Positions 30,450-40,172 of a DNA stretch of 64,000 nt are shown here, piece by piece. The position numbers and the translations under genes were made by a program. The notes beneath the pieces are model-generated. The model saw only the letters and a list, made by a program, of their open reading frames with translations, was not told where the DNA came from and ran no database searches. The stretch lies in the NCBI RefSeq assembly GCF_965641715.1, contig NZ_OZ282453.1, one strand, 5' to 3'. This DNA is from Escherichia coli. GTDB lineage: Bacteria; Pseudomonadota; Gammaproteobacteria; Enterobacterales; Enterobacteriaceae. Position 1 is the first letter of the stretch, and each line of letters starts with the position of its first letter.

Positions 30450-31957
30450 TGGCAATTCTTGATGATGTGATTGGCGTTTTTTCACCAGGATGGAAAGCGG
30501 CAAGGCTGCGTTCCCGTGCGGTGATCCAGGCTTATGAGGCCGTAAAAACGACACGGACACACAAAGCCCGGCGGGAAAACCGAACTGCCGACCAGTTAAG
30601 CCAGTACGGGGCCGTGTCGTTACGTGAGCAGGCCCGTTACCTTGATAACAACCACGATCTGGTTATTGGTGTATTTGACAAGCTGGAAGAACGGGTGGTG
30701 GGGAAAAACGGGATTATTGTCGAGCCACATCCGGTATTACGCAATGGGGCCATTGCCCGTGATCTGGCAGCGGAGATACGCACCCGATGGAGTGAATGGT
30801 CTGTCAGTCCGGAAGTCACCGGGCAGTTTACCCGTCCGATGCTGGAACGTCTGATGCTGCGTACCTGGCTGCGCGATGGTGAGGTGTTTGCCCAGATGGT
30901 TTCCGGGCGCATAAACAGCCTGACGCCTTCTGCCGGTGTTCATTTCTGGCTGGAGGCGCTCGAGCCGGACTTTATTCCCATGACCAGTGATGAGAGCAAC
31001 AGGCTGAATCAGGGCGTGTTTGTTGATGACTGGGGGCGTCCCGAAAAATATCTGGTGTATAAAAGCCGTCCCGTATCCGGGCGGCAGATGGAAACCAAAG
31101 AAGTGGATGCAGAGCGAATGCTGCATCTTAAATTTGTTCGCCGTCTGCACCAGATGCGCGGGACGTCTTTGTTGTCCGGTGTGCTGATCCGCCTCAGTGC
31201 CCTGAAAGAGTATGAAGATTCTGAGCTGACTGCAGCAAGGATCGCCGCTGCTCTGGGGATGTACATCCGGAAAGGCGACGGGCAGAGCTATGAACCGGAT
31301 GGTAATGGCAGCAAGGAGAATGAACGCGAGCTTACCATTCAGCCAGGCATTATTTACGACGATCTGAAACCCGGCGAAGAAATCGGAATGGTGAAGTCGG
31401 ATCGTCCCAATCCTAACCTTGAAACTTTTCGTAATGGTCAGTTGCGTGCCGTGGCGGCGGGCAGTCGTCTGAGTTTTTCCAGTACGGCACGCAACTATAA
31501 CGGCACTTACAGCGCCCAGCGTCAGGAGCTGGTTGAATCCACTGATGGCTACCTGATCCTGCAGGACTGGTTTATTGGTGCCGTCACCCGCCCGATGTAT
31601 CGTGCCTGGCTGAAACAGGCTGTGGCATCCGGTGTTATCAGGCTACCTCGCGATCTTGACCGTTCTTCACTGTATACCGCGGTGTATTCCGGACCGGTGA
31701 TGCCGTGGATTGACCCTGTTAAGGAGGCTGAGGCCTGGAAAATTCAGATTCGTGGTGGAGCGGCGACAGAATCAGACTGGGTACGTGCAGGTGGTCGTAA
31801 TCCGGATGATGTCAAACGTCGGCGCAAGGCCGAAATTGATGAAAACCGCAAGCTGGATCTGGTATTTGATACCGATCCGGCCAGTGATAAAGGAGGCAGC
31901 AGTGCCGCAACGAAACGACAGGAGCCGCAGCACACCGACGACCAGTCCGAAGAATAA
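30449..31957 (+). CDS. Portal protein (lambda gpB family)
   Basis: ORF 30377..31957; start at ATG 30449 (MAILDDVIGVF); position and size. Confidence 0.85.
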   Translation: MAILDDVIGVFSPGWKAARLRSRAVIQAYEAVKTTRTHKARRENRTADQLSQYGAVSLREQARYLDNNHDLVIGVFDKLEERVVGKNGIIVEPHPVLRNGAIARDLAAEIRTRWSEWSVSPEVTGQFTRPMLERLMLRTWLRDGEVFAQMVSGRINSLTPSAGVHFWLEALEPDFIPMTSDESNRLNQGVFVDDWGRPEKYLVYKSRPVSGRQMETKEVDAERMLHLKFVRRLHQMRGTSLLSGVLIRLSALKEYEDSELTAARIAAALGMYIRKGDGQSYEPDGNGSKENERELTIQPGIIYDDLKPGEEIGMVKSDRPNPNLETFRNGQLRAVAAGSRLSFSSTARNYNGTYSAQRQELVESTDGYLILQDWFIGAVTRPMYRAWLKQAVASGVIRLPRDLDRSSLYTAVYSGPVMPWIDPVKEAEAWKIQIRGGAATESDWVRAGGRNPDDVKRRRKAEIDENRKLDLVFDTDPASDKGGSSAATKRQEPQHTDDQSEE

Positions 31958-31970
31958 TTCCTGGTTCAGG

Positions 31971-33929
31971 ATGCAGGCAGGTCACCAGAGTGACGCGGAT
32001 ATTTATATTTATGACGAGATTGGTTTCTGGGGTGTTACAGCGAAGCAGTTTATCAGTGATCTGAATGCACTGGGCGATATCACCCACATTAATCTCCATA
32101 TTAATTCACCGGGTGGCGATGTCTTTGAAGGCATCGCCATTTTTAATGCACTGAAAACACATGGTGCGTCCATTACCGTTTATGTCGACGGTGTGGCGGC
32201 GTCAATGGCGTCGGTCATTGCGATGGTGGGAAACCCGGTCATTATGCCGGAAAACTCCTTCATGATGATTCATAAACCATTTGGCTTTACGGGCGGTGAT
32301 GCGGAGGACATGCGCACCTATGCCGACCTGCTCGATAAAGTTGAGGCGGTTCTGTTACCCGCTTATGCACAGAAAACCGGGAAAACCACCGATGAAATTG
32401 CTGCCATGCTGGCGGATGAGACCTGGATGTCCGGTGCCGAATGTCTGGCACAGGGATTTGCTGATCAGGTGACACCAGCCGTTAAGGCAATGGCATGTAT
32501 TCAGTCAAAACGTACAGAGGAATTTAAAAAGATGCCGGAATCCATTCGAAACATGATTACTCCGCCACGCAACAGTGCTCCACGCGTACAGGATGATGAA
32601 CCTGCAGCCTCCCGGACGCCAGTGCAGGCAGCAGCACCCGTGGTGGATGAAAACAGTATCCGTGCGCAGGTACTGGCAGAGCAAAAAGCGCGTGTAAACG
32701 GTATTAATGATCTGTTTGCCATGTTTGGCGGGCGTTATCAGACGCTGCAGGCCCAGTGTCTTGCCGATCCTGAATGTTCGCTGGAGCAGGCCCGTGAAAA
32801 GCTGTTGAACGAGATGGGGCGCGAGTCCACGCCATCCAATAAAAATACCCCGGCTCATATTTATGCCGGTAACGGTAATTTTGTGGGGGACGGGATTCGC
32901 CAGGCGCTGATGGCGCGTGCCGGATTTGAAAAAACCGAACGTGATAATGTCTACAACGGGATGACCCTGCGTGAATATGCCCGTATGTCACTAACTGAAC
33001 GGGGTATTGGGGTTTCCGGTTATAACCCGATGCAGATGGTCGGTGCGGCGTTCACACACAGTACGTCTGACTTCGGTAATATTCTGCTGGATGTTGCGAA
33101 CAAAGCCATTCTGCAGGGCTGGGAAGATGCCCCTGAAACCTATGAACAGTGGACGCGGAAAGGTCAGTTGTCTGATTTTAAAATTGCCCATCGTGTGGGT
33201 ATGGGGGGCTTCAGTGCTCTACGTCAGGTGCGTGAAGGGGCGGAATATAAATACGTCACCACCGGAGATAAACAGGCCACTATTGCACTGGCGACCTATG
33301 GCGAGCTGTTCAGTATCACCCGTCAGGCCATTATCAATGATGATCTGAATATGCTGACCGATGTCCCGATGAAACTGGGCCGTGCGGCGAAATCCACTAT
33401 TGCCGATCTGGTTTATGCCATTCTGACGTCTAACCCGAAAATCTCCACAGATAATGTAAGTCTGTTCGATAAAGCGAAACATGCAAACGTACTGGAGAGC
33501 GCTGCAATGGACGTGGCATCGCTGGATAAAGCCCGCCAGTTGATGCGCGTTCAGAAAGAGGGGGAGCGTCATCTGAATATTCGTCCTGCGTTCGTACTGG
33601 TACCGACGGCGATGGAGTCTGTTGCTAACCAGGTCATTCGCTCCTCAAGTGTCAAGGGGGCTGACATTAACGCCGGTATTATTAACCCGGTGAAAGATTT
33701 TGCGACCGTTATTGCAGAGCCTCGTCTTGATGATAACAGCCAGACCACCTTCTACCTGGCTGCGTCAAAAGGCTCCGATACGATTGAAGTGGCTTATCTC
33801 AACGGTGTGGATACGCCATATATTGATCAGATGGAGGGCTTCAGTGTGGATGGCGTGACAACGAAAGTGCGTATTGACGCCGGTGTCGCGCCAGTTGATC
33901 ACCGCGGTCTGGTGAAATGTACGGCGTAA
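31971..33929 (+). CDS. Prohead protease (ClpP/S49-like) fused to major capsid protein
   Basis: N-terminal IYIYDEIGFWGVTAKQFISDL...INSPGGDVFEGIAIFNALK...VDGVAASMASVIAMVG protease core; long C-terminal capsid-like domain; 652 aa. Confidence 0.75.
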   Translation: MQAGHQSDADIYIYDEIGFWGVTAKQFISDLNALGDITHINLHINSPGGDVFEGIAIFNALKTHGASITVYVDGVAASMASVIAMVGNPVIMPENSFMMIHKPFGFTGGDAEDMRTYADLLDKVEAVLLPAYAQKTGKTTDEIAAMLADETWMSGAECLAQGFADQVTPAVKAMACIQSKRTEEFKKMPESIRNMITPPRNSAPRVQDDEPAASRTPVQAAAPVVDENSIRAQVLAEQKARVNGINDLFAMFGGRYQTLQAQCLADPECSLEQAREKLLNEMGRESTPSNKNTPAHIYAGNGNFVGDGIRQALMARAGFEKTERDNVYNGMTLREYARMSLTERGIGVSGYNPMQMVGAAFTHSTSDFGNILLDVANKAILQGWEDAPETYEQWTRKGQLSDFKIAHRVGMGGFSALRQVREGAEYKYVTTGDKQATIALATYGELFSITRQAIINDDLNMLTDVPMKLGRAAKSTIADLVYAILTSNPKISTDNVSLFDKAKHANVLESAAMDVASLDKARQLMRVQKEGERHLNIRPAFVLVPTAMESVANQVIRSSSVKGADINAGIINPVKDFATVIAEPRLDDNSQTTFYLAASKGSDTIEVAYLNGVDTPYIDQMEGFSVDGVTTKVRIDAGVAPVDHRGLVKCTA

Positions 33930-35595: not shown

Positions 35596-35606
35596 AGGAG
35601 GTGGCA

Positions 35607-36350
35607 ATGACCACACCAAATCCACTGGCAAAAACGAAAGGTGCGGGAACGACGTTCTGGATGTACACCGGCAAGGGCGATGCGTTTGCGAACCCTTTAT
35701 CGAACACTGACTGGCTGCGTCTTGCGATGGTGAAGGATCTGCAACCTGGCGAAATGACCGCTGATGCAGAAGATGACACTTATCTCGATGATGAAGATGC
35801 AGACTGGAAAACGACAACCCAGGGGCAGAAATCCGTCGGTGATACTTCGGCGACGCTGGCCTGGCGTCCGGGTGACAGCGGGCAGAAAAAACTGGTTCAG
35901 TTGTTCGACTCCGGTGAAGTCTGCGCGTTTCGTATCAAATATCCCAACGGCACTGTTGATGTTTTCCGTGGCTGGCTGAGCTCACTGGGTAAAACCATTG
36001 CCTCAAAAGACGTGATGACCCGCACAGTGAAAATCAGCGGTGTGGGGCGTCCGTATCTGGCAGAGGAAGGCACTGAAACAGTGAGCGTTACCGGGCTGAC
36101 GGTGGCACCGGCATCTGCCAGTGTAAAAGTGGGAGCAACCACCACGCTGACCTTTACAGTAAAACCTGACGGAGCCAGTGACAAAGCGATCAGTGTGCAT
36201 TCGACAGATCCACAGACTGCCACTGTGACCCTGAACGGGCTTGTGGCCACGGTGAAAGGCGTGAAGCAGGGCAGTGTCAGCATTGTGGGCATGACTTCTG
36301 ACGGCGATTTTGTGGCAGTGGCTGCGGTGGCTGTCAGCGCCGCAGGTTAA
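35607..36350 (+). CDS. Major tail protein V with C-terminal Ig-like (Big_2) domain
   Basis: AAGGAGG RBS; lambda gpV-like N-terminus and Ig-like C-terminal extension. Confidence 0.85.
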   Translation: MTTPNPLAKTKGAGTTFWMYTGKGDAFANPLSNTDWLRLAMVKDLQPGEMTADAEDDTYLDDEDADWKTTTQGQKSVGDTSATLAWRPGDSGQKKLVQLFDSGEVCAFRIKYPNGTVDVFRGWLSSLGKTIASKDVMTRTVKISGVGRPYLAEEGTETVSVTGLTVAPASASVKVGATTTLTFTVKPDGASDKAISVHSTDPQTATVTLNGLVATVKGVKQGSVSIVGMTSDGDFVAVAAVAVSAAG

Positions 36351-36370
36351 CAGGACGATACTCATCATTT

Positions 36371-36394
36371 GCCCCGGTTATCCGGGGCTTTTTT
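36371..36394 (+). terminator. Rho-independent terminator after major tail gene
   Basis: gccccgg-ttat-ccggggc hairpin followed by TTTTTT. Confidence 0.7.
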
Positions 36395-36407
36395 GCAGGT
36401 GGAGAAC

Positions 36408-36797
36408 ATGATGTTTCTGAAACAGGGCACGTTTAATTATGAAAAGCAGTCCGTGGTGCTCAGTGAGCTGTCCGGGCTGCAGAGAATTGAATATCTGGCG
36501 TTTGTTCAGCAGCGAACGGCAAAGTTTGATGCCGAAGAGGGAGAACTGCCGGAGGCTGAACGACAGATTGCTTTTCTGCGGATGGGGATGGATATCAATG
36601 CCTGGCTGGTTTCCCGCTCACTGTGGAATGCGGAACAGTCTCAGGATGTTGAGACGCTTTGCGCATCCGTTATTACAACATGGTCGTATGATGCCCTGGG
36701 AGCGGGGGCGGAGATGGTTCTGTCGCTGAGCGGTATGGGAGTCATTGAGAATGCCGGGGATTTGGAGCATGAGGTGCTGACGCCGGAAAAGTCCTGA
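36408..36797 (+). CDS. Tail assembly chaperone G
   Basis: MMFLKQGTFNYEKQSVVLSELSGLQRIEYLAFVQ...; lambda gpG-like, start after terminator with GGAG RBS. Confidence 0.8.
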   Translation: MMFLKQGTFNYEKQSVVLSELSGLQRIEYLAFVQQRTAKFDAEEGELPEAERQIAFLRMGMDINAWLVSRSLWNAEQSQDVETLCASVITTWSYDALGAGAEMVLSLSGMGVIENAGDLEHEVLTPEKS

Positions 36798-36805
36798 CGC
36801 GGGAA

Positions 36806-37135
36806 ATGCAGTTTGTCATGCGGCTTGCCCGGGAGTTCCGGCGGGCAGACTGGCGGCGGATGCTGTCGGAAATGTCGGCCACTGAGCTTGGTGAGTGGGG
36901 CGATTATTTCCGGATGCAGAGCTTCAGTGATGTGTGGATGGATGCGCAGTTTGCCTCGCTGAAGGCATTGATCGTGAGAATGGTGTCCGGTAGCAGTGAT
37001 GCTGCGGTGGCTGATTTCAGCCTTTTACCGGAAGAGAACGGGATACCGGAGCGAACGGACGAAGAACTGATGCATCTTGGGGAAGGTATTTCCGGAGGTG
37101 TGCGTTATGGACCAGATAGCCAACCTGGTCATTGA
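36806..37135 (+). CDS. Tail assembly chaperone T-frame segment (expected G-T frameshift product)
   Basis: Frame-shifted ORF overlapping end of G; T frame open from 36773. Confidence 0.6.
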   Translation: MQFVMRLAREFRRADWRRMLSEMSATELGEWGDYFRMQSFSDVWMDAQFASLKALIVRMVSGSSDAAVADFSLLPEENGIPERTDEELMHLGEGISGGVRYGPDSQPGH

Positions 37136-40100
37136 TTTGGGGATTGATGCGGCAGAGTTTAAAAATGAAATTCCCCGTATCAAAAACCTTCTGAATGGTG
37201 CAGCCAGCGATGCAGAACGGTCTTCTGCCCGTATGCAGCGTTTTATGGAGCGTCAGACTCAGGCCGCCCGGCAGACAATGCAGGCGGCTTCTTCGGCTGC
37301 AACAGCCGCATCCGTCCATGCGCAGACGGTGGAGAAGAGCGCACAGGCTCATGAACGCATGGCCCGCGAGGTGGAGCAAACCCGCCAGCGTATGGAGGCA
37401 CTGAGCCAGAAAATGCGCGAGGAACAGGCGCAGGCCATGGCTCTGGCGGAGGCTCAGGATAAAGCGGCTGCCGCGTTTTATCGTCAGATTGACAGTGTGA
37501 AACAGGCCAGTGCGGGGCTGCAGGAATTACAGCGTATTCAGCAGCAGATCCGACAGGCCAGAAACAGTGGCGGGATTGGTCAGCAGGATTATCTGGCGCT
37601 GATTTCTGAGGTTACGGCGAAAACCCGTGTTCTTACGCAGGCTGAGGAAGAGGCTACCCGACAGAAAGTGGCGTTTATCCGTCAGCTTAAAGAGCAGGCA
37701 ACCCGCCAGAATCTTTCTTCTTCTGAGTTGCTTCGTGCTAAGGCTGCCCAGTTGGGGGTAAGCAGTGCTGCAGAAGTGTATATCCGCAAAATGGAGCAGG
37801 CAGGAAAAGCCACGCATTCGCTGGGTCTGAAAAGTGCAGCGGCCCGCCAGGAGATTGGCGTTCTGATAGGTGAACTGGCCCGCGGCAATTTAGGGGCGCT
37901 GAGGGGATCCGGGATAACGCTGGCTAACCGTGCCGGATGGATAGACACTCTGATGTCACCGAAAGGCATGATGCTTGGCGGGGTTATTGGCGGTATTGCC
38001 GCGTCCGTCTATGGTCTGGGTAAAGCCTGGTATGACGGTCAGAAGGAGGGGGAAGAATTTAACCGCCAGTTGTCGCTGACGGGGCATTATGCCGGAGTCA
38101 CTGCCGGGCAGCTGTGGACGCTCAGTCGTGCTATTTCCGGGAATGGTATCACGCAACATGCTGCAGCCGGTGCGCTGGCTCAGGTGGTGGGGAGTGGTGC
38201 ATTTCGTGGAAACGATATCGGTATGGTGGCGAGAGCTGCCGCACAGATGGAGCGATCGGTTGGCCAGTCGGTCAGCGATACCATAAATCAGTTTAAGCGG
38301 CTGAAGGATGATCCTGTAAATGCCGCGAAGGCTCTGGACAATGAGCTGCATTTTCTTACTGCCACTCAGCTTGAGCAGATACGTGTCCTTGGGGATCAGG
38401 GACGGTCCAGTGATGCTGCACGGATAGCCATGTCTGCACTGGCAGAGGAAACCGGTCGGCGTACTGCGGATATTGATAATAACCTCAATGCGCTTGGCAG
38501 TACGCTGAAGTATCTGTCTGATTTGTGGAGTCGTTTCTGGGATGCGGCCATGAATATTGGTCGTGAAGACTCGCTGGATGAACAGATTGCCGCTTTACAG
38601 GAGAAAGTGTCGCGGGCGAAAAGACTCCCCTGGACGGCATCATCTTCTCAGGTTGAATACGATCAGCAGCGTCTTAACGATCTTCAGGAGAAAAAACGCC
38701 AGAAGGATTTGCAGGATGCAAAAGAGCAGGCAGAGCGGAATTATCAGGAGCAACAGAAACGACGTAATGCTGAAAATGCTGCACTGAACCGGATGAATGA
38801 AACGGAAGCAGCACGACATCAGCGTGAAATTGCGCGTATTAATTCCATGCAGTACGCCGATCAGGCTGTCAGGGATGCAGCGATACAACGTGAAAATGAA
38901 CGTTACGAGAAAGCCCTGGCATCCGGTAAGAAAAAAACACGCGAACCCCGTAATGATGAGGCCACCCGGTTATTGCTGCAGTACAGTCAGCAACAGGCAC
39001 AGGTGGAAGGACAGATTGCTGCTGCCAGACAGTCAGCAGGCATTGCCACGGAAAGGATGACAGAAGCGCATAAACAGCTTCTGGCTCTGCAGCAGCGCAT
39101 CAGCGACCTGGACGGGAAAAAACTGACGGCAGATGAAAAGAGTGTGCTGGCCCGTAAAGATGAACTGATTCAGGCACTGACGCTGCTGGATGTAAAACAG
39201 CAGGAGCTTCAGAAACAGACGGCACTCAACGAGCTGAAGAAAAAAACAATTCAGCTGACCAGTCAACTGGCTGAAGAAGAGCGCGCTCAGCGTCAGCAAC
39301 ATGACCTGGATATCGCCACGGTGGGTATGGGTGATCAGCAGCGGCAGCGATATCAGGTACAACTGAGTCTTCGCCAGAAATACCAGCAACAGCTGGAGCA
39401 GTTGAGGCGGGATAGTGAGCAGAAAGGAACATATAACACGGATGACTACAGAAAGGCCGAGCAGGCGCTGACGGAGAGCCTGAACCGACAACTGAATGAG
39501 AATCGCCGTTACTGGCAACAGCTTGAAGTTGTGCAGGGTAACTGGAAAAACGGAGTCCTGCGTGCATTTCAGGATTTTACCGTGGATGCAGATAATACGG
39601 CAGGAACAGCAGAACAGGTGTTCTCGTCAGCCTTCAGCAACATGGGAAATGGCCTGGCAACTTTTGTCACTACCGGCAAACTCAATTTCAAATCCTTCAC
39701 CTCTTCTGTGCTGTCAGATATGGCGAAAATCCTGGCGCAGGCAACCATGATGAAATCGATAAAAGGGATTGGCAGTGTGCTGGGATTTGATCTCAGCAGC
39801 CTTTCCCTGAATGCCAATGGGGGGATTTATCAGTCTGCTGATTTGAGTCGTTACAGTGGCACGGTGGTTAACCGTCCGACGTTTTTTGCTTTTGCAAAAG
39901 GCGCGGGTGTGATGGGGGAAGCGGGACCTGAAGCCATTCTGCCACTGCGTCGTGGTGCTGACGGTAAGCTGGGGGTTGTGGCGGATATTGGTGGTTCAGG
40001 TATGGCGATGTTTGCCCCGCAGTACAACATCGAGATCAATAACGATGGCACGAACGGGCAGATAGGTCCGGCTGCCCTGAAGGTGGTTTATGACCTTGGG

Positions 40101-40172
40101 AAAAAAGCGGCAGCGGACTTTATGCAACAGCAGGCCCGTGATGGTGGTCGGTTAAGTGGAGCATATCGGTAA
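37107..40172 (+). CDS. Tail tape measure protein (gpH-like)
   Basis: ~1020 aa, coiled-coil-rich, GGAGG RBS, between G/T and M. Confidence 0.9.
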   Translation: MDQIANLVIDLGIDAAEFKNEIPRIKNLLNGAASDAERSSARMQRFMERQTQAARQTMQAASSAATAASVHAQTVEKSAQAHERMAREVEQTRQRMEALSQKMREEQAQAMALAEAQDKAAAAFYRQIDSVKQASAGLQELQRIQQQIRQARNSGGIGQQDYLALISEVTAKTRVLTQAEEEATRQKVAFIRQLKEQATRQNLSSSELLRAKAAQLGVSSAAEVYIRKMEQAGKATHSLGLKSAAARQEIGVLIGELARGNLGALRGSGITLANRAGWIDTLMSPKGMMLGGVIGGIAASVYGLGKAWYDGQKEGEEFNRQLSLTGHYAGVTAGQLWTLSRAISGNGITQHAAAGALAQVVGSGAFRGNDIGMVARAAAQMERSVGQSVSDTINQFKRLKDDPVNAAKALDNELHFLTATQLEQIRVLGDQGRSSDAARIAMSALAEETGRRTADIDNNLNALGSTLKYLSDLWSRFWDAAMNIGREDSLDEQIAALQEKVSRAKRLPWTASSSQVEYDQQRLNDLQEKKRQKDLQDAKEQAERNYQEQQKRRNAENAALNRMNETEAARHQREIARINSMQYADQAVRDAAIQRENERYEKALASGKKKTREPRNDEATRLLLQYSQQQAQVEGQIAAARQSAGIATERMTEAHKQLLALQQRISDLDGKKLTADEKSVLARKDELIQALTLLDVKQQELQKQTALNELKKKTIQLTSQLAEEERAQRQQHDLDIATVGMGDQQRQRYQVQLSLRQKYQQQLEQLRRDSEQKGTYNTDDYRKAEQALTESLNRQLNENRRYWQQLEVVQGNWKNGVLRAFQDFTVDADNTAGTAEQVFSSAFSNMGNGLATFVTTGKLNFKSFTSSVLSDMAKILAQATMMKSIKGIGSVLGFDLSSLSLNANGGIYQSADLSRYSGTVVNRPTFFAFAKGAGVMGEAGPEAILPLRRGADGKLGVVADIGGSGMAMFAPQYNIEINNDGTNGQIGPAALKVVYDLGKKAAADFMQQQARDGGRLSGAYR

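What the first reader, a model, noticed from the sequence alone, without database searches (positions are those of the whole stretch)
36773..37135. G/T tail-chaperone overlap lacks a canonical slippery heptamer
The T reading frame is open only from 36773 and G stops at 36797, so any programmed -1 frameshift must occur within ~25 nt. That stretch contains CCGGAAAAG, which in the G frame reads ccg-gaa-aag and is not a canonical X-XXY-YYZ site (lambda uses G-GGA-AAG). Either slippage occurs on the A-AAG element alone or another mechanism is used.
Basis: seen in the sequence. Interest (0 to 1): 0.3.

Follow-up and report, generated by a model that had tools for sequence, protein, structure and literature searches.

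The report
Lambda-type tail chaperone frameshift, variant site
This is the well-known lambda-style G/GT tail-chaperone frameshift of a very common E. coli prophage, using a conserved one-base variant (G GAA AAG) of lambda's slippery sequence, so it is an ordinary system with a mildly unusual shift site that public annotations miss.

Summary
The G gene (36408-36797) stops at TGA 36795-97. The -1 frame is closed by TGA 36770-72 and then open for 36773-37135. The 25-nt overlap holds no X_XXY_YYZ heptamer, only CCG GAA AAG.

It is not an anomaly. G is Pfam Phage_TAC_2 and the -1 ORF is Phage_tail_T, and they lie between the major tail gene and the tape-measure gene of a mEp460/cdtI/Ayreon-like prophage found in 1847 of 5426 complete E. 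coli genomes.

A -1 slip after AAG (36789-91) gives a 242-aa GT fusion. Its T part aligns without gaps, from the first residue after the slip, with lambda, Gifsy-2, phi80, mEp043 and VT1-Sakai. G_GAA_AAG (36785-91) is therefore the positional homologue of lambda's G_GGA_AAG. It is invariant in every close relative and recurs in 29 distinct sequence contexts.

The most likely mechanism is this. tRNA-Lys slips from AAG to AAA. P-site tRNA-Glu either re-pairs with GGA through a central G·U or does not re-pair at all. An upstream Shine-Dalgarno-like GAGG(TG) 10 nt away may help. No conserved downstream structure was found.

The ATG at 36806 is an internal, non-conserved residue without a usable ribosome-binding site. 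Interest is low: a variant of a known kind.

The parts
36408..36797 (+). Gene G, the tail assembly chaperone (129 aa), read in the 0 frame
   Evidence: Pfam PF06894 Phage_TAC_2, E=8e-40. Annotated as G/gpG in Ayreon, mEp460, Tritos and by PGAP. SD-like CAGGTGG lies 5 nt upstream of the ATG.
36764..36776 (+). Shine-Dalgarno-like purine tract, GGAG at 36764-67 and GAGGTG at 36771-76. GAGG ends 10 nt before the heptamer. It is a candidate upstream stimulator (inferred).
   Evidence: Duplex with the 16S 3' end is -9.2 kcal/mol, within the top ~5% of background windows. SD-like 4-mers occur in 15 of 27 unique upstream contexts against 14.5% background. The tract is absent in phi80 and mEp043.
36770..36772 (+). 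TGA that closes the -1 (T) frame upstream and sets the 5' limit for any productive shift
36785..36791 (+). Shift site G_GAA_AAG. A-site AAG slips to AAA (tRNA-Lys). P-site GAA would re-pair with GGA (tRNA-Glu, central G·U).
   Evidence: It is at the same position as lambda G_GGA_AAG and VT1-Sakai A_AAA_AAG in gap-free GT alignments. It is invariant in the 59 of 61 IMG/VR loci that still have an intact G-T junction and carry T at 70-100% identity. It occurs in 29 unique contexts.
36795..36797 (+). G stop codon (TGA), one sense codon after the shift site
   Evidence: The same +6 nt spacing is seen in most G_GAA_AAG relatives.
36791..37135 (+). T segment, read in the -1 frame after the slip (114 aa plus stop). 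The predicted GT fusion is 128+114 = 242 aa.
   Evidence: Pfam PF06223 Phage_tail_T, E=5e-15. Fusion modelled. Alignment A1 is gap-free from residue 1, with E5, F8 and LARE invariant.
36806..36808 (+). ATG used by public annotations as the start of T. It is probably an internal Met codon (residue 6 of the T segment).
   Evidence: The position is L, I or R in relatives. The only SD-like match (CGGGAA, -4.3 kcal/mol) abuts the ATG with 0 nt spacing. PGAP and mEp460 start T here.
37107..40172 (+). Tape-measure gene H, which overlaps the end of T. It is the binding partner of G/GT by analogy with lambda.
   Evidence: Pfam TMP_2, Tape_meas_lam_C and TMP_4. Strong SD CGGAGGTGT lies 5 nt upstream.
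35601..36350 (+). Major tail protein V with a C-terminal Ig-like domain, just upstream. It is the partner of the T domain by analogy with lambda.
   Evidence: Pfam Phage_TTP_12 (2e-66) and Big_2

Best explanation
Window 36408-37135 encodes the lambda-type pair of tail assembly chaperones. Most ribosomes translate G and stop at 36795-97. A small fraction slip back one base at G_GAA_AAG (36785-91) and continue in the T frame to 37135, producing a 242-aa GT fusion (...LTPEK|VLTREMQFVMRLAREF...). By analogy with lambda, GT bridges the tape-measure protein H (through the G part) and the tail-tube protein V (through the T part).

The slip is driven by the single E. coli tRNA-Lys (anticodon mnm5s2UUU) moving from AAG to the better-matched AAA. 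The P-site tRNA-Glu (mnm5s2UUC) either re-pairs with GGA using a central G·U pair, making this a near-cognate version of lambda's heptamer, or contributes nothing, giving pure A_AAG single-tRNA slippage. An upstream Shine-Dalgarno-like GAGG(TG) 10 nt away may raise the rate, as in dnaX and cdd.

Shown here: gene identities, frames, positional homology and conservation of the site. Inferred: the slip itself, its rate, the role of tRNA-Glu re-pairing and the role of the SD-like tract.
For: Gene identity and order V-G-T-H are established.

T lies in the -1 frame. It is open for only 6 codons before the slip point in the window, and for 4-22 codons in 38 relatives, while the G frame is open for 92-167 codons (128-167 in all but one, L146).

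GT fusions modelled at the AAG codon align gap-free with lambda (GGGAAAG), VT1-Sakai (AAAAAAG), and Gifsy-2, phi80, mEp043 and Kp4865-4 (all GGAAAAG). All have 11 residues between the slip Lys and the LARE motif.

C[GA]CCGGAAAAGTC[CA]TGA is conserved in the 59 IMG/VR loci with an intact G-T junction (of 61 recovered), although the sequence just upstream is hypervariable. The last base before the stop is A in one locus. GGAAAAG occurs in 21 of 32 unique contexts among T relatives of at least 49% identity. In the context GCCGGRAAAGYCCTGA followed by a T homologue, all 29 hits have A and none has G.

Glu5 of the T segment, upstream of the ATG, is invariant. Gifsy-2, with the identical site, lacks any start codon before residue 24, and its record calls T 'part of G+G' frameshift hybrid protein'.

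Literature support: A_AA.G is the most shift-prone tetramer in E. coli (PMC4066793). IS1222 uses G_CGA_AAG and B. subtilis cdd shifts at A_CGA_AAG (PMC5009743). An A·U to G·U change in the -1 frame costs only about 5 kJ/mol at the first position of the P-site codon (the second position, at issue here, was not measured), and the G·S to A·S change at the A-site wobble is favourable (PMC6787027). Lambda needs only about 4% shifting (PMC3296357).
Against: There is no direct protein or ribosome-profiling evidence for GT in this phage group.

In a purified E. coli system, AUG GAA AAG (that is, G GAA AAG) was used as the control in which only one tRNA can slip, and it gave mainly 0-frame product (PMC6924986).

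A bare A_AA.G without a stimulator was barely above background (about 0.15%) in a lacZ reporter (PMC4066793).

No conserved downstream structure was found. The SD-like tract is missing in phi80-type relatives and may simply reflect Glu/Gly codons of the acidic G tail.

Two other in-frame A_AAG tetramers occur inside G, so the tetramer alone is not special.

An ATG lies 8 nt after the G stop, so some free T made by re-initiation cannot be excluded.
Confidence: 0.85

Rival explanations
1. T is made only as a free 109-aa protein from its own ATG (36806), for instance by termination-reinitiation after the G stop 8 nt upstream, and no GT fusion is made. This is how PGAP, mEp460 and Tritos annotate it.
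For: An in-frame ATG lies 8 nt after the TGA. The Met is kept in the closest relatives. All public records except Gifsy-2 annotate separate CDSs.
Against: There is no usable SD: CGGGAA abuts the ATG. The position is L, I or R in other relatives, and the five residues before it, including the invariant Glu5, align with lambda GT. Gifsy-2, with the same site, has no start before residue 24, inside the conserved LAREFRRPDW motif. One relative at 70% identity, L072, has CGG in place of this ATG. In lambda the G part of GT is what binds the tape measure (review PMC5009743), so free T would lack its anchor.
Confidence: 0.08
2. GT is made, but by another route within the 25 nt. Candidates are transcriptional slippage on the A run, a slip at a different codon, or a -1 slip of P-site tRNA-Lys after translocation rather than of the A-site tRNA.
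For: More distant T relatives have weaker motifs directly followed by the stop codon (GCA_AAA_TAG, A_GAA_AAG_TAA). This fits P-site slippage while a stop codon waits in the A site.
Against: The A run is only 4 nt, far below the lengths known to cause polymerase slippage (established knowledge). A_AAG is the only Z_ZZN tetramer in the overlap. In the window the stop is one codon removed from AAG, so it is not in the A site when Lys-tRNA is in the P site.
Confidence: 0.05
3. The loss of the canonical heptamer marks a decaying, non-functional GT in a defective prophage.
For: The window is prophage-like, and G GAA AAG is poorly slippery in vitro.
Against: The identical site is present in Ayreon, phi458, mEp460, cdtI, Tritos and other records deposited as phage genomes, as well as in phi80 and Gifsy-2. 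It is conserved across 29 contexts and found in 1847 E. coli genomes.
Confidence: 0.02

Closest known systems
Bacteriophage lambda G/GT programmed -1 frameshift (Levin, Hendrix and Casjens 1993; Xu, Hendrix and Duda 2004, 2013, 2014; as summarised in PMC5009743 and PMC3296357)
   Same: Same Pfam families (Phage_TAC_2 and Phage_tail_T), the same V-G-T-H gene order, and the same -1 frame relation. The slip falls on the same Lys codon at the homologous position, and the T segment is homologous from the first residue. No 3' structure is evident.
   Different: The heptamer is G_GAA_AAG instead of G_GGA_AAG. The P-site tRNA is therefore tRNA-Glu, which faces a second-position G·U, rather than tRNA-Gly, which faces only a wobble change. 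G ends 1 codon after the site instead of 5. The G tail is shorter. T lacks lambda's C-terminal duplication. An SD-like tract lies 10 nt upstream, which lambda lacks.
Tetranucleotide or hexanucleotide A_AAG sites: IS1222 G_CGA_AAG and Bacillus subtilis cdd A_CGA_AAG (PMC5009743); Z_ZZN survey (PMC4066793)
   Same: An in-frame A_AAG is decoded by the single tRNA-Lys. The P-site codon cannot re-pair in a fully cognate way. The shift rate is expected to be low.
   Different: Those sites depend on a downstream pseudoknot or hairpin (IS elements) or an SD-like sequence (cdd, from my own knowledge). Here the P-site codon is GAA, read by a restricted-wobble mnm5s2U tRNA, and position 1 of the heptamer (G) allows 2 Watson-Crick pairs plus 1 G·U after the shift.
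E. coli dnaX A_AAA_AAG with an upstream SD-like AGGGAG and a downstream hairpin
   Same: The A-site AAG to AAA slip by tRNA-Lys is the same. A possible SD-like stimulator lies about 10 nt upstream.
   Different: There is no A_AAA in the P site and no conserved hairpin. The product is longer, not shorter, than the 0-frame protein.
Gifsy-2 STM1039/STM1041.1n (NC_010393)
   Same: The local sequence ACGCCGGAAAAGTCCTGA is identical, and the record already annotates T as part of a frameshift hybrid.
   Different: G is about 55% identical and T about 52%. Gifsy-2 T has no Met near the junction.

Membership tests
Lambda-type G/GT tail assembly chaperone with programmed -1 frameshift | Two short ORFs lie between the major tail gene and the tape-measure gene | tested here: met
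   V 35601-36350, G 36408-36797, T frame 36773-37135, H 37107-40172
Lambda-type G/GT tail assembly chaperone with programmed -1 frameshift | The upstream ORF belongs to the gpG family and the downstream ORF to the gpT family | tested here: met
   PF06894 at 8e-40; PF06223 at 5e-15
Lambda-type G/GT tail assembly chaperone with programmed -1 frameshift | The downstream ORF is in the -1 frame and overlaps the 3' end of G | tested here: met
   25-nt overlap. The frame relation was verified in the window and in 38 relatives.
Lambda-type G/GT tail assembly chaperone with programmed -1 frameshift | A canonical X_XXY_YYZ slippery heptamer lies in the overlap | tested here: not met
   Only G_GAA_AAG is present, and the P-site codon GAA is not XXY
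Lambda-type G/GT tail assembly chaperone with programmed -1 frameshift | The shift site is at the position homologous to lambda's and is conserved among relatives | tested here: met
   Gap-free GT alignments; invariant in the 59 of 61 close loci with an intact G-T junction; 29 unique contexts
Lambda-type G/GT tail assembly chaperone with programmed -1 frameshift | The downstream ORF has no independent translation start | tested here: inconclusive
   An ATG is present at 36806, but it has no spaced SD, is not conserved, and follows conserved residues
Lambda-type G/GT tail assembly chaperone with programmed -1 frameshift | The GT fusion protein is made at a few percent of G and is needed for tail assembly | not testable with these tools
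   This needs a western blot, mass spectrometry or a reporter, plus genetics
A_AAG tetranucleotide (single-tRNA) -1 frameshift sites | An in-frame A_AAG is read by tRNA-Lys(UUU), with no cognate P-site re-pairing | tested here: met
   A_AAG at 36788-91 in the G frame. GAA to GGA gives a second-position G·U (PMC6924986).
A_AAG tetranucleotide (single-tRNA) -1 frameshift sites | A stimulatory element is present (downstream structure or upstream SD-like sequence) | tested here: inconclusive
   There is no conserved 3' structure, and the window-only fold has z=-2.2. SD-like tracts are enriched upstream (15/27 against 14.5%) but are not universal and are confounded by coding.
dnaX-type frameshift cassette | A_AAA_AAG heptamer plus SD-like sequence plus 3' hairpin; Rfam model | tested here: not met
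   The heptamer differs. No Rfam family matches 36300-37300. There is no conserved hairpin.

The most novel reading that the evidence does not exclude
A tail module present in about a third of complete E. coli genomes, and also in Gifsy-2 and phi80, makes its essential GT chaperone at a heptamer that ribosome biochemists use as a poorly slippery, single-tRNA control. If so, either a second-position G·U in the P site is tolerated in vivo far better than assumed, or these phages rely on pure A_AAG slippage boosted by an upstream SD-like tract. The more distant relatives may rely instead on an adjacent stop codon. That would give a natural graded series (G_GGA_AAG, A_AAA_AAG, G_GAA_AAG, A_GAA_AAG-stop, GCA_AAA-stop) for dissecting how much P-site re-pairing matters. 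Because both tRNAs at this site carry mnm5s2U34, the site could also be more sensitive to host tRNA thiolation than lambda's.
Probability: 0.3. Interest if true: 0.4.

Novelty: new variant of a known kind. Interest (0 to 1): 0.22.

Why it matters
There is a practical consequence. PGAP and most phage records annotate T here as a free-standing gene from ATG 36806 or even later, and they omit the GT fusion. The same is probably true of the close copies found in 1847 complete E. coli genomes (every spread-sampled record lists G and T as separate features), so a rule that recognises G_GAA_AAG at this position would correct a widespread annotation error.

There is also a modest mechanistic interest. 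The site is a natural, strongly conserved example of -1 frameshifting without cognate P-site re-pairing. It sits beside close homologues that use canonical heptamers, which makes it a convenient comparative system. It does not change the picture of how G/GT chaperones work.

Tried and rejected
1. Downstream stimulatory RNA. RNAalifold on 15 diverse G_GAA_AAG loci gave -4.1 kcal/mol with essentially no covariation. The window alone folds with z=-2.2, but the stem starts within the heptamer. I rejected this as a conserved element.

2. Rfam scan of 36300-37300. Only chance-level matches were found.

3. Enrichment of the word GGAAAAG in the window. There is none: 11 matches against 9.7 expected.

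4. Looking for the canonical variant in the same context. I scanned IMG/VR for GCCGGRAAAGYCCTGA. None of the 29 hits in a T-homologue context has G at heptamer base 3. Many unrelated chance or other-family hits were also returned.

5. Rosetta-stone evidence. A protein search with the modelled GT found four singleton ORFs carrying both Pfam domains (P0001-P0003, P0018). All are explained by internal deletions. P0001, for example, joins G directly to the T frame upstream of the slip (...NA|DAGKVLTREM). They are not evidence for or against frameshifting.

6. Literature. No paper held in the library describes G_GAA_AAG as a natural phage shift site. Xu et al. 2004, Levin et al. 1993 and Licznar et al. 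2003 are not held, so I could not check whether they list or tested this sequence.

7. Transcriptional slippage was rejected because the A run is only 4 nt.

Full report
**The observation**

- In the G frame the text reads ...CAT GAG GTG CTG ACG CCG GAA AAG TCC TGA, with the stop at 36795-36797.
- The -1 frame carries TGA at 36770-36772 and is then open from 36773 to the stop at 37133-37135.
- Any productive -1 shift must therefore fall within 25 nt.
- In that stretch the only Z_ZZN tetramer in the G frame is A_AAG (36788-36791). There is no X_XXY_YYZ heptamer.
- An ATG lies in the T frame at 36806.
- Lambda's own site, checked in NC_001416, is GCG GGA AAG.
- The word GGAAAAG is not enriched in the window (11 matches against 9.7 expected), so the word alone means nothing. 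Position, frame and conservation carry the argument.

**What the genes are**

The ORF at 36408-36797 matches Pfam Phage_TAC_2 (lambda gpG) at 8e-40. The -1 ORF matches Phage_tail_T at 5e-15. Upstream is a lambda-type tail-tube gene with an Ig-like domain, and downstream is a tape-measure gene.

The region is 97-99.7% identical to phages Ayreon, phi458, cdtI, mEp460, Tritos and others. It is present in 1847 of 5426 complete E. coli genomes. It is a standard lambdoid V-G-T-H tail module.

None of these records, and not PGAP on a 100% identical chromosome, annotates a slippage join. T is annotated from ATG 36806, or in Ayreon from a later Met. Only the Gifsy-2 record, which has the identical local sequence ACGCCGGAAAAGTCCTGA, calls T 'part of G+G' frameshift hybrid protein'.

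**Positional homology of the shift site**

For eight phages I modelled a -1 slip immediately after the in-frame AAG that is preceded by A. The resulting T segments align without a single gap from the first residue after the slip. Every one has 11 residues between the slip Lys and the invariant LARE motif.
- window: K|VLTREMQFVMRLAREF
- Gifsy-2: K|VLNNELHFVRQLAREF
- lambda: K|VFDGELSFALKLAREM
- phi80: K|ALASELKFVLNLAREF
- VT1-Sakai: K|AFEGELNFVLKLAREM

At that same position the heptamer differs between groups.
- G_GGA_AAG in lambda, PhiR46_1, PhiR12_2 and an Stx2a phage.
- A_AAA_AAG in VT1-Sakai.
- G_GAA_AAG in the window, Ayreon, mEp460, Tritos, Gifsy-2, phi80, mEp043 and Klebsiella phage Kp4865-4.

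The window's site is therefore a one-base variant of lambda's heptamer at the homologous codon pair.

**Conservation**

- The scan recovered 61 IMG/VR loci with T at 70-100% identity. In the 59 that still have an intact G-T junction, CTGAC[GA]CCGGAAAAGTC[CA]TGA is conserved (the last base before the stop is A in one locus), while the 30 nt just upstream (the G tail) differs completely between sublineages.
- A profile scan reaching T relatives down to 49% identity gave 32 unique contexts: 21 with GGAAAAG, 7 with GCA_AAA directly followed by TAG, 3 with A_GAA_AAG directly followed by TAA, and 1 with G_GAA_AAA directly followed by TAG.
- In all of them the G frame is the long ORF (92-167 open codons; 128-167 in all but one, L146) and the T frame is open for only 4-22 codons upstream.
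- An exact-pattern scan for GCCGGRAAAGYCCTGA found 29 hits followed by a T homologue. All have A at heptamer base 3.
- In the 29 unique G_GAA_AAG contexts, heptamer base 1 is a synonymous third position of Pro, Ala or Leu codons with no constraint from the T frame. It is always G, although neighbouring synonymous positions vary. This hints that the first G, and hence P-site re-pairing, matters. CCG, GCG and CTG are also the preferred E. coli codons, so the hint is weak.

**The rival start codon**

- The Met encoded at 36806 is residue 6 of the aligned T segment. That position is Leu in lambda, phi80 and Gifsy-2, and Ile or Arg in others.
- The residue before it (Glu5) is invariant.
- In Gifsy-2 the first in-frame Met is residue 24, inside the conserved LAREFRRPDWRRML motif.
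- One relative at 70% identity has CGG in place of this ATG.
- The only anti-SD complementarity upstream of 36806 (CGGGAA, -4.3 kcal/mol) abuts the ATG. G and H, by contrast, have SD sequences at 5 nt spacing, at -7.0 and -13.3 kcal/mol.

Independent initiation is therefore unlikely to be the designed route. Some re-initiation 8 nt after the G stop cannot be excluded.

**Mechanism**

E. coli has one tRNA-Lys (mnm5s2UUU). It pairs better with AAA than with AAG, which makes A_AAG the most shift-prone tetramer in E. coli (PMC4066793; PMC5009743).

Natural sites without cognate P-site re-pairing are known: IS1222 uses G_CGA_AAG and B. subtilis cdd shifts at A_CGA_AAG.

In the window, after a -1 shift the P-site tRNA-Glu (anticodon mnm5s2UUC) would face GGA. 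That gives G:C, G·U and A:U, so two Watson-Crick pairs and a central G·U.

Thermodynamic analysis of dnaX variants puts an A·U to G·U change in the -1 frame at about 5 kJ/mol for the first position of the P-site codon; the second position, the one at issue here, was not measured. The same analysis finds the G·S to A·S change at the A-site wobble favourable. Single-mismatch variants kept 28-44% shifting in the presence of the dnaX stimulators (PMC6787027).

Against this, the Rodnina laboratory used AUG GAA AAG as the control in which only one tRNA can slip, and saw mainly 0-frame product (PMC6924986). A bare A_AA.G without a stimulator was barely above background in a lacZ assay, although it reached 5.6% with a pseudoknot (PMC4066793).

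Lambda needs only about 4% GT (PMC3296357). A low rate would therefore suffice, but the rate here is unknown.

**Stimulators**

No conserved 3' structure exists. RNAalifold on 15 diverse loci gave -4.1 kcal/mol with no meaningful covariation. The window alone folds with z=-2.2, but into a structure that includes the heptamer itself. No Rfam family matches.

Upstream, the window has GGAG at 36764-67 and GAGGTG at 36771-76. GAGG ends 10 nt before the heptamer, which is the dnaX spacing, and pairing to the 16S 3' end is -9.2 kcal/mol.

Across 27 unique G_GAA_AAG contexts, 15 have a GGAG, GAGG or AGGA core at -20 to -4. The figure for background 17-mers of the same G genes is 14.5% (Mann-Whitney p=6e-5, but the sequences are related). 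One sublineage has a perfect AAGGAGGTG.

Lambda-type loci with the canonical heptamer show no such tract, but neither do phi80 and mEp043, which have G_GAA_AAG. The tract also coincides with a conserved Glu codon of the acidic G tail. I treat it as a plausible, untested stimulator.

The still weaker motifs in distant relatives are all directly followed by the 0-frame stop. This suggests that a stop codon in the A site may play the same compensating role there. In the window the stop is one codon further on.

**Other checks**

A protein search with the modelled GT found four singleton ORFs with both domains. Alignment shows they are deletion fusions, so they are uninformative about frameshifting. 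Transcriptional slippage is implausible on four A residues.

**Comparison, novelty and verdict**

This is a member, by homology, of the lambda G/GT chaperone system, and it almost certainly works like it. The one defining feature it fails is the canonical X_XXY_YYZ heptamer, so it is best described as a variant of the known kind.

The variant is widespread and was implicitly recognised in the Gifsy-2 annotation. In the library I could search, I found no paper that names G_GAA_AAG as a natural shift site. The key primary papers (Levin 1993, Xu 2004, Licznar 2003) were not available.

The finding is real and correctly read, but ordinary. Its main value is as an annotation fix and as a convenient natural series for studying how much P-site re-pairing matters. 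Interest is 0.22.

Noticed in passing
window 36371-36394: Between the V stop (36350) and the G start (36408) there is a terminator-like hairpin, GCCCCGG-TTAT-CCGGGGC, followed by TTTTTT. It is annotated as a terminator in the Ayreon and mEp460 records. It could lower expression of G/T/H relative to the abundant tube protein V.
   Followed up: partly
L156, L161, L165, L168-L170, L175-L178 and about 20 more IMG/VR loci: Unrelated metagenomic viral contigs carry the same 16-mer with the canonical heptamer (GCCGGGAAAGTCCTGA). It is followed in the -1 frame by a conserved VLNPGWLASAVFTIAKDTGWSEDFIIW... segment. This is probably another tail-chaperone family with a G-T-like frameshift.
   Followed up: no
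L117, L119-L120, L123-L128, L136, L144, L148-L153: More distant T relatives have even weaker shift motifs, always directly followed by the G stop codon: GCA_AAA_TAG, A_GAA_AAG_TAA and G_GAA_AAA_TAG. The L148/L153 group also has a G_GAA_AAG 12 nt upstream inside the overlap, so its true shift site is ambiguous.
   Followed up: partly
window 36443-36446 and 36521-36524: Two more in-frame A_AAG tetramers lie inside G (T_GAA_AAG and GCA_AAG). Shifts there would run into early -1 frame stops. The tetramer is thus not avoided in this gene.
   Followed up: no
window 36806-37135; NZ_CP025856 85919-86248; MF807953 9254-9517: Public annotations give T as an independent CDS. PGAP, mEp460 and Tritos start it at ATG 36806, and Ayreon starts it at a later Met. 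None records a ribosomal-slippage join. The same omission probably applies to the close copies found in 1847 E. coli genomes, since every spread-sampled record lists G and T as separate features.
   Followed up: yes
proteins P0001-P0003, P0018: These are singleton database ORFs in which G and T are fused in one frame by internal deletions. In P0001, for example, G runs straight into the T frame upstream of the slip. They are likely mutated prophages or assembly errors.
   Followed up: partly
window 31710-33929: A 739-aa ORF upstream of the tail genes looks, from its translation, like a prohead protease fused to a major capsid protein, as in many lambdoid E. coli prophages. I did not test this with a domain search.
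   Followed up: no
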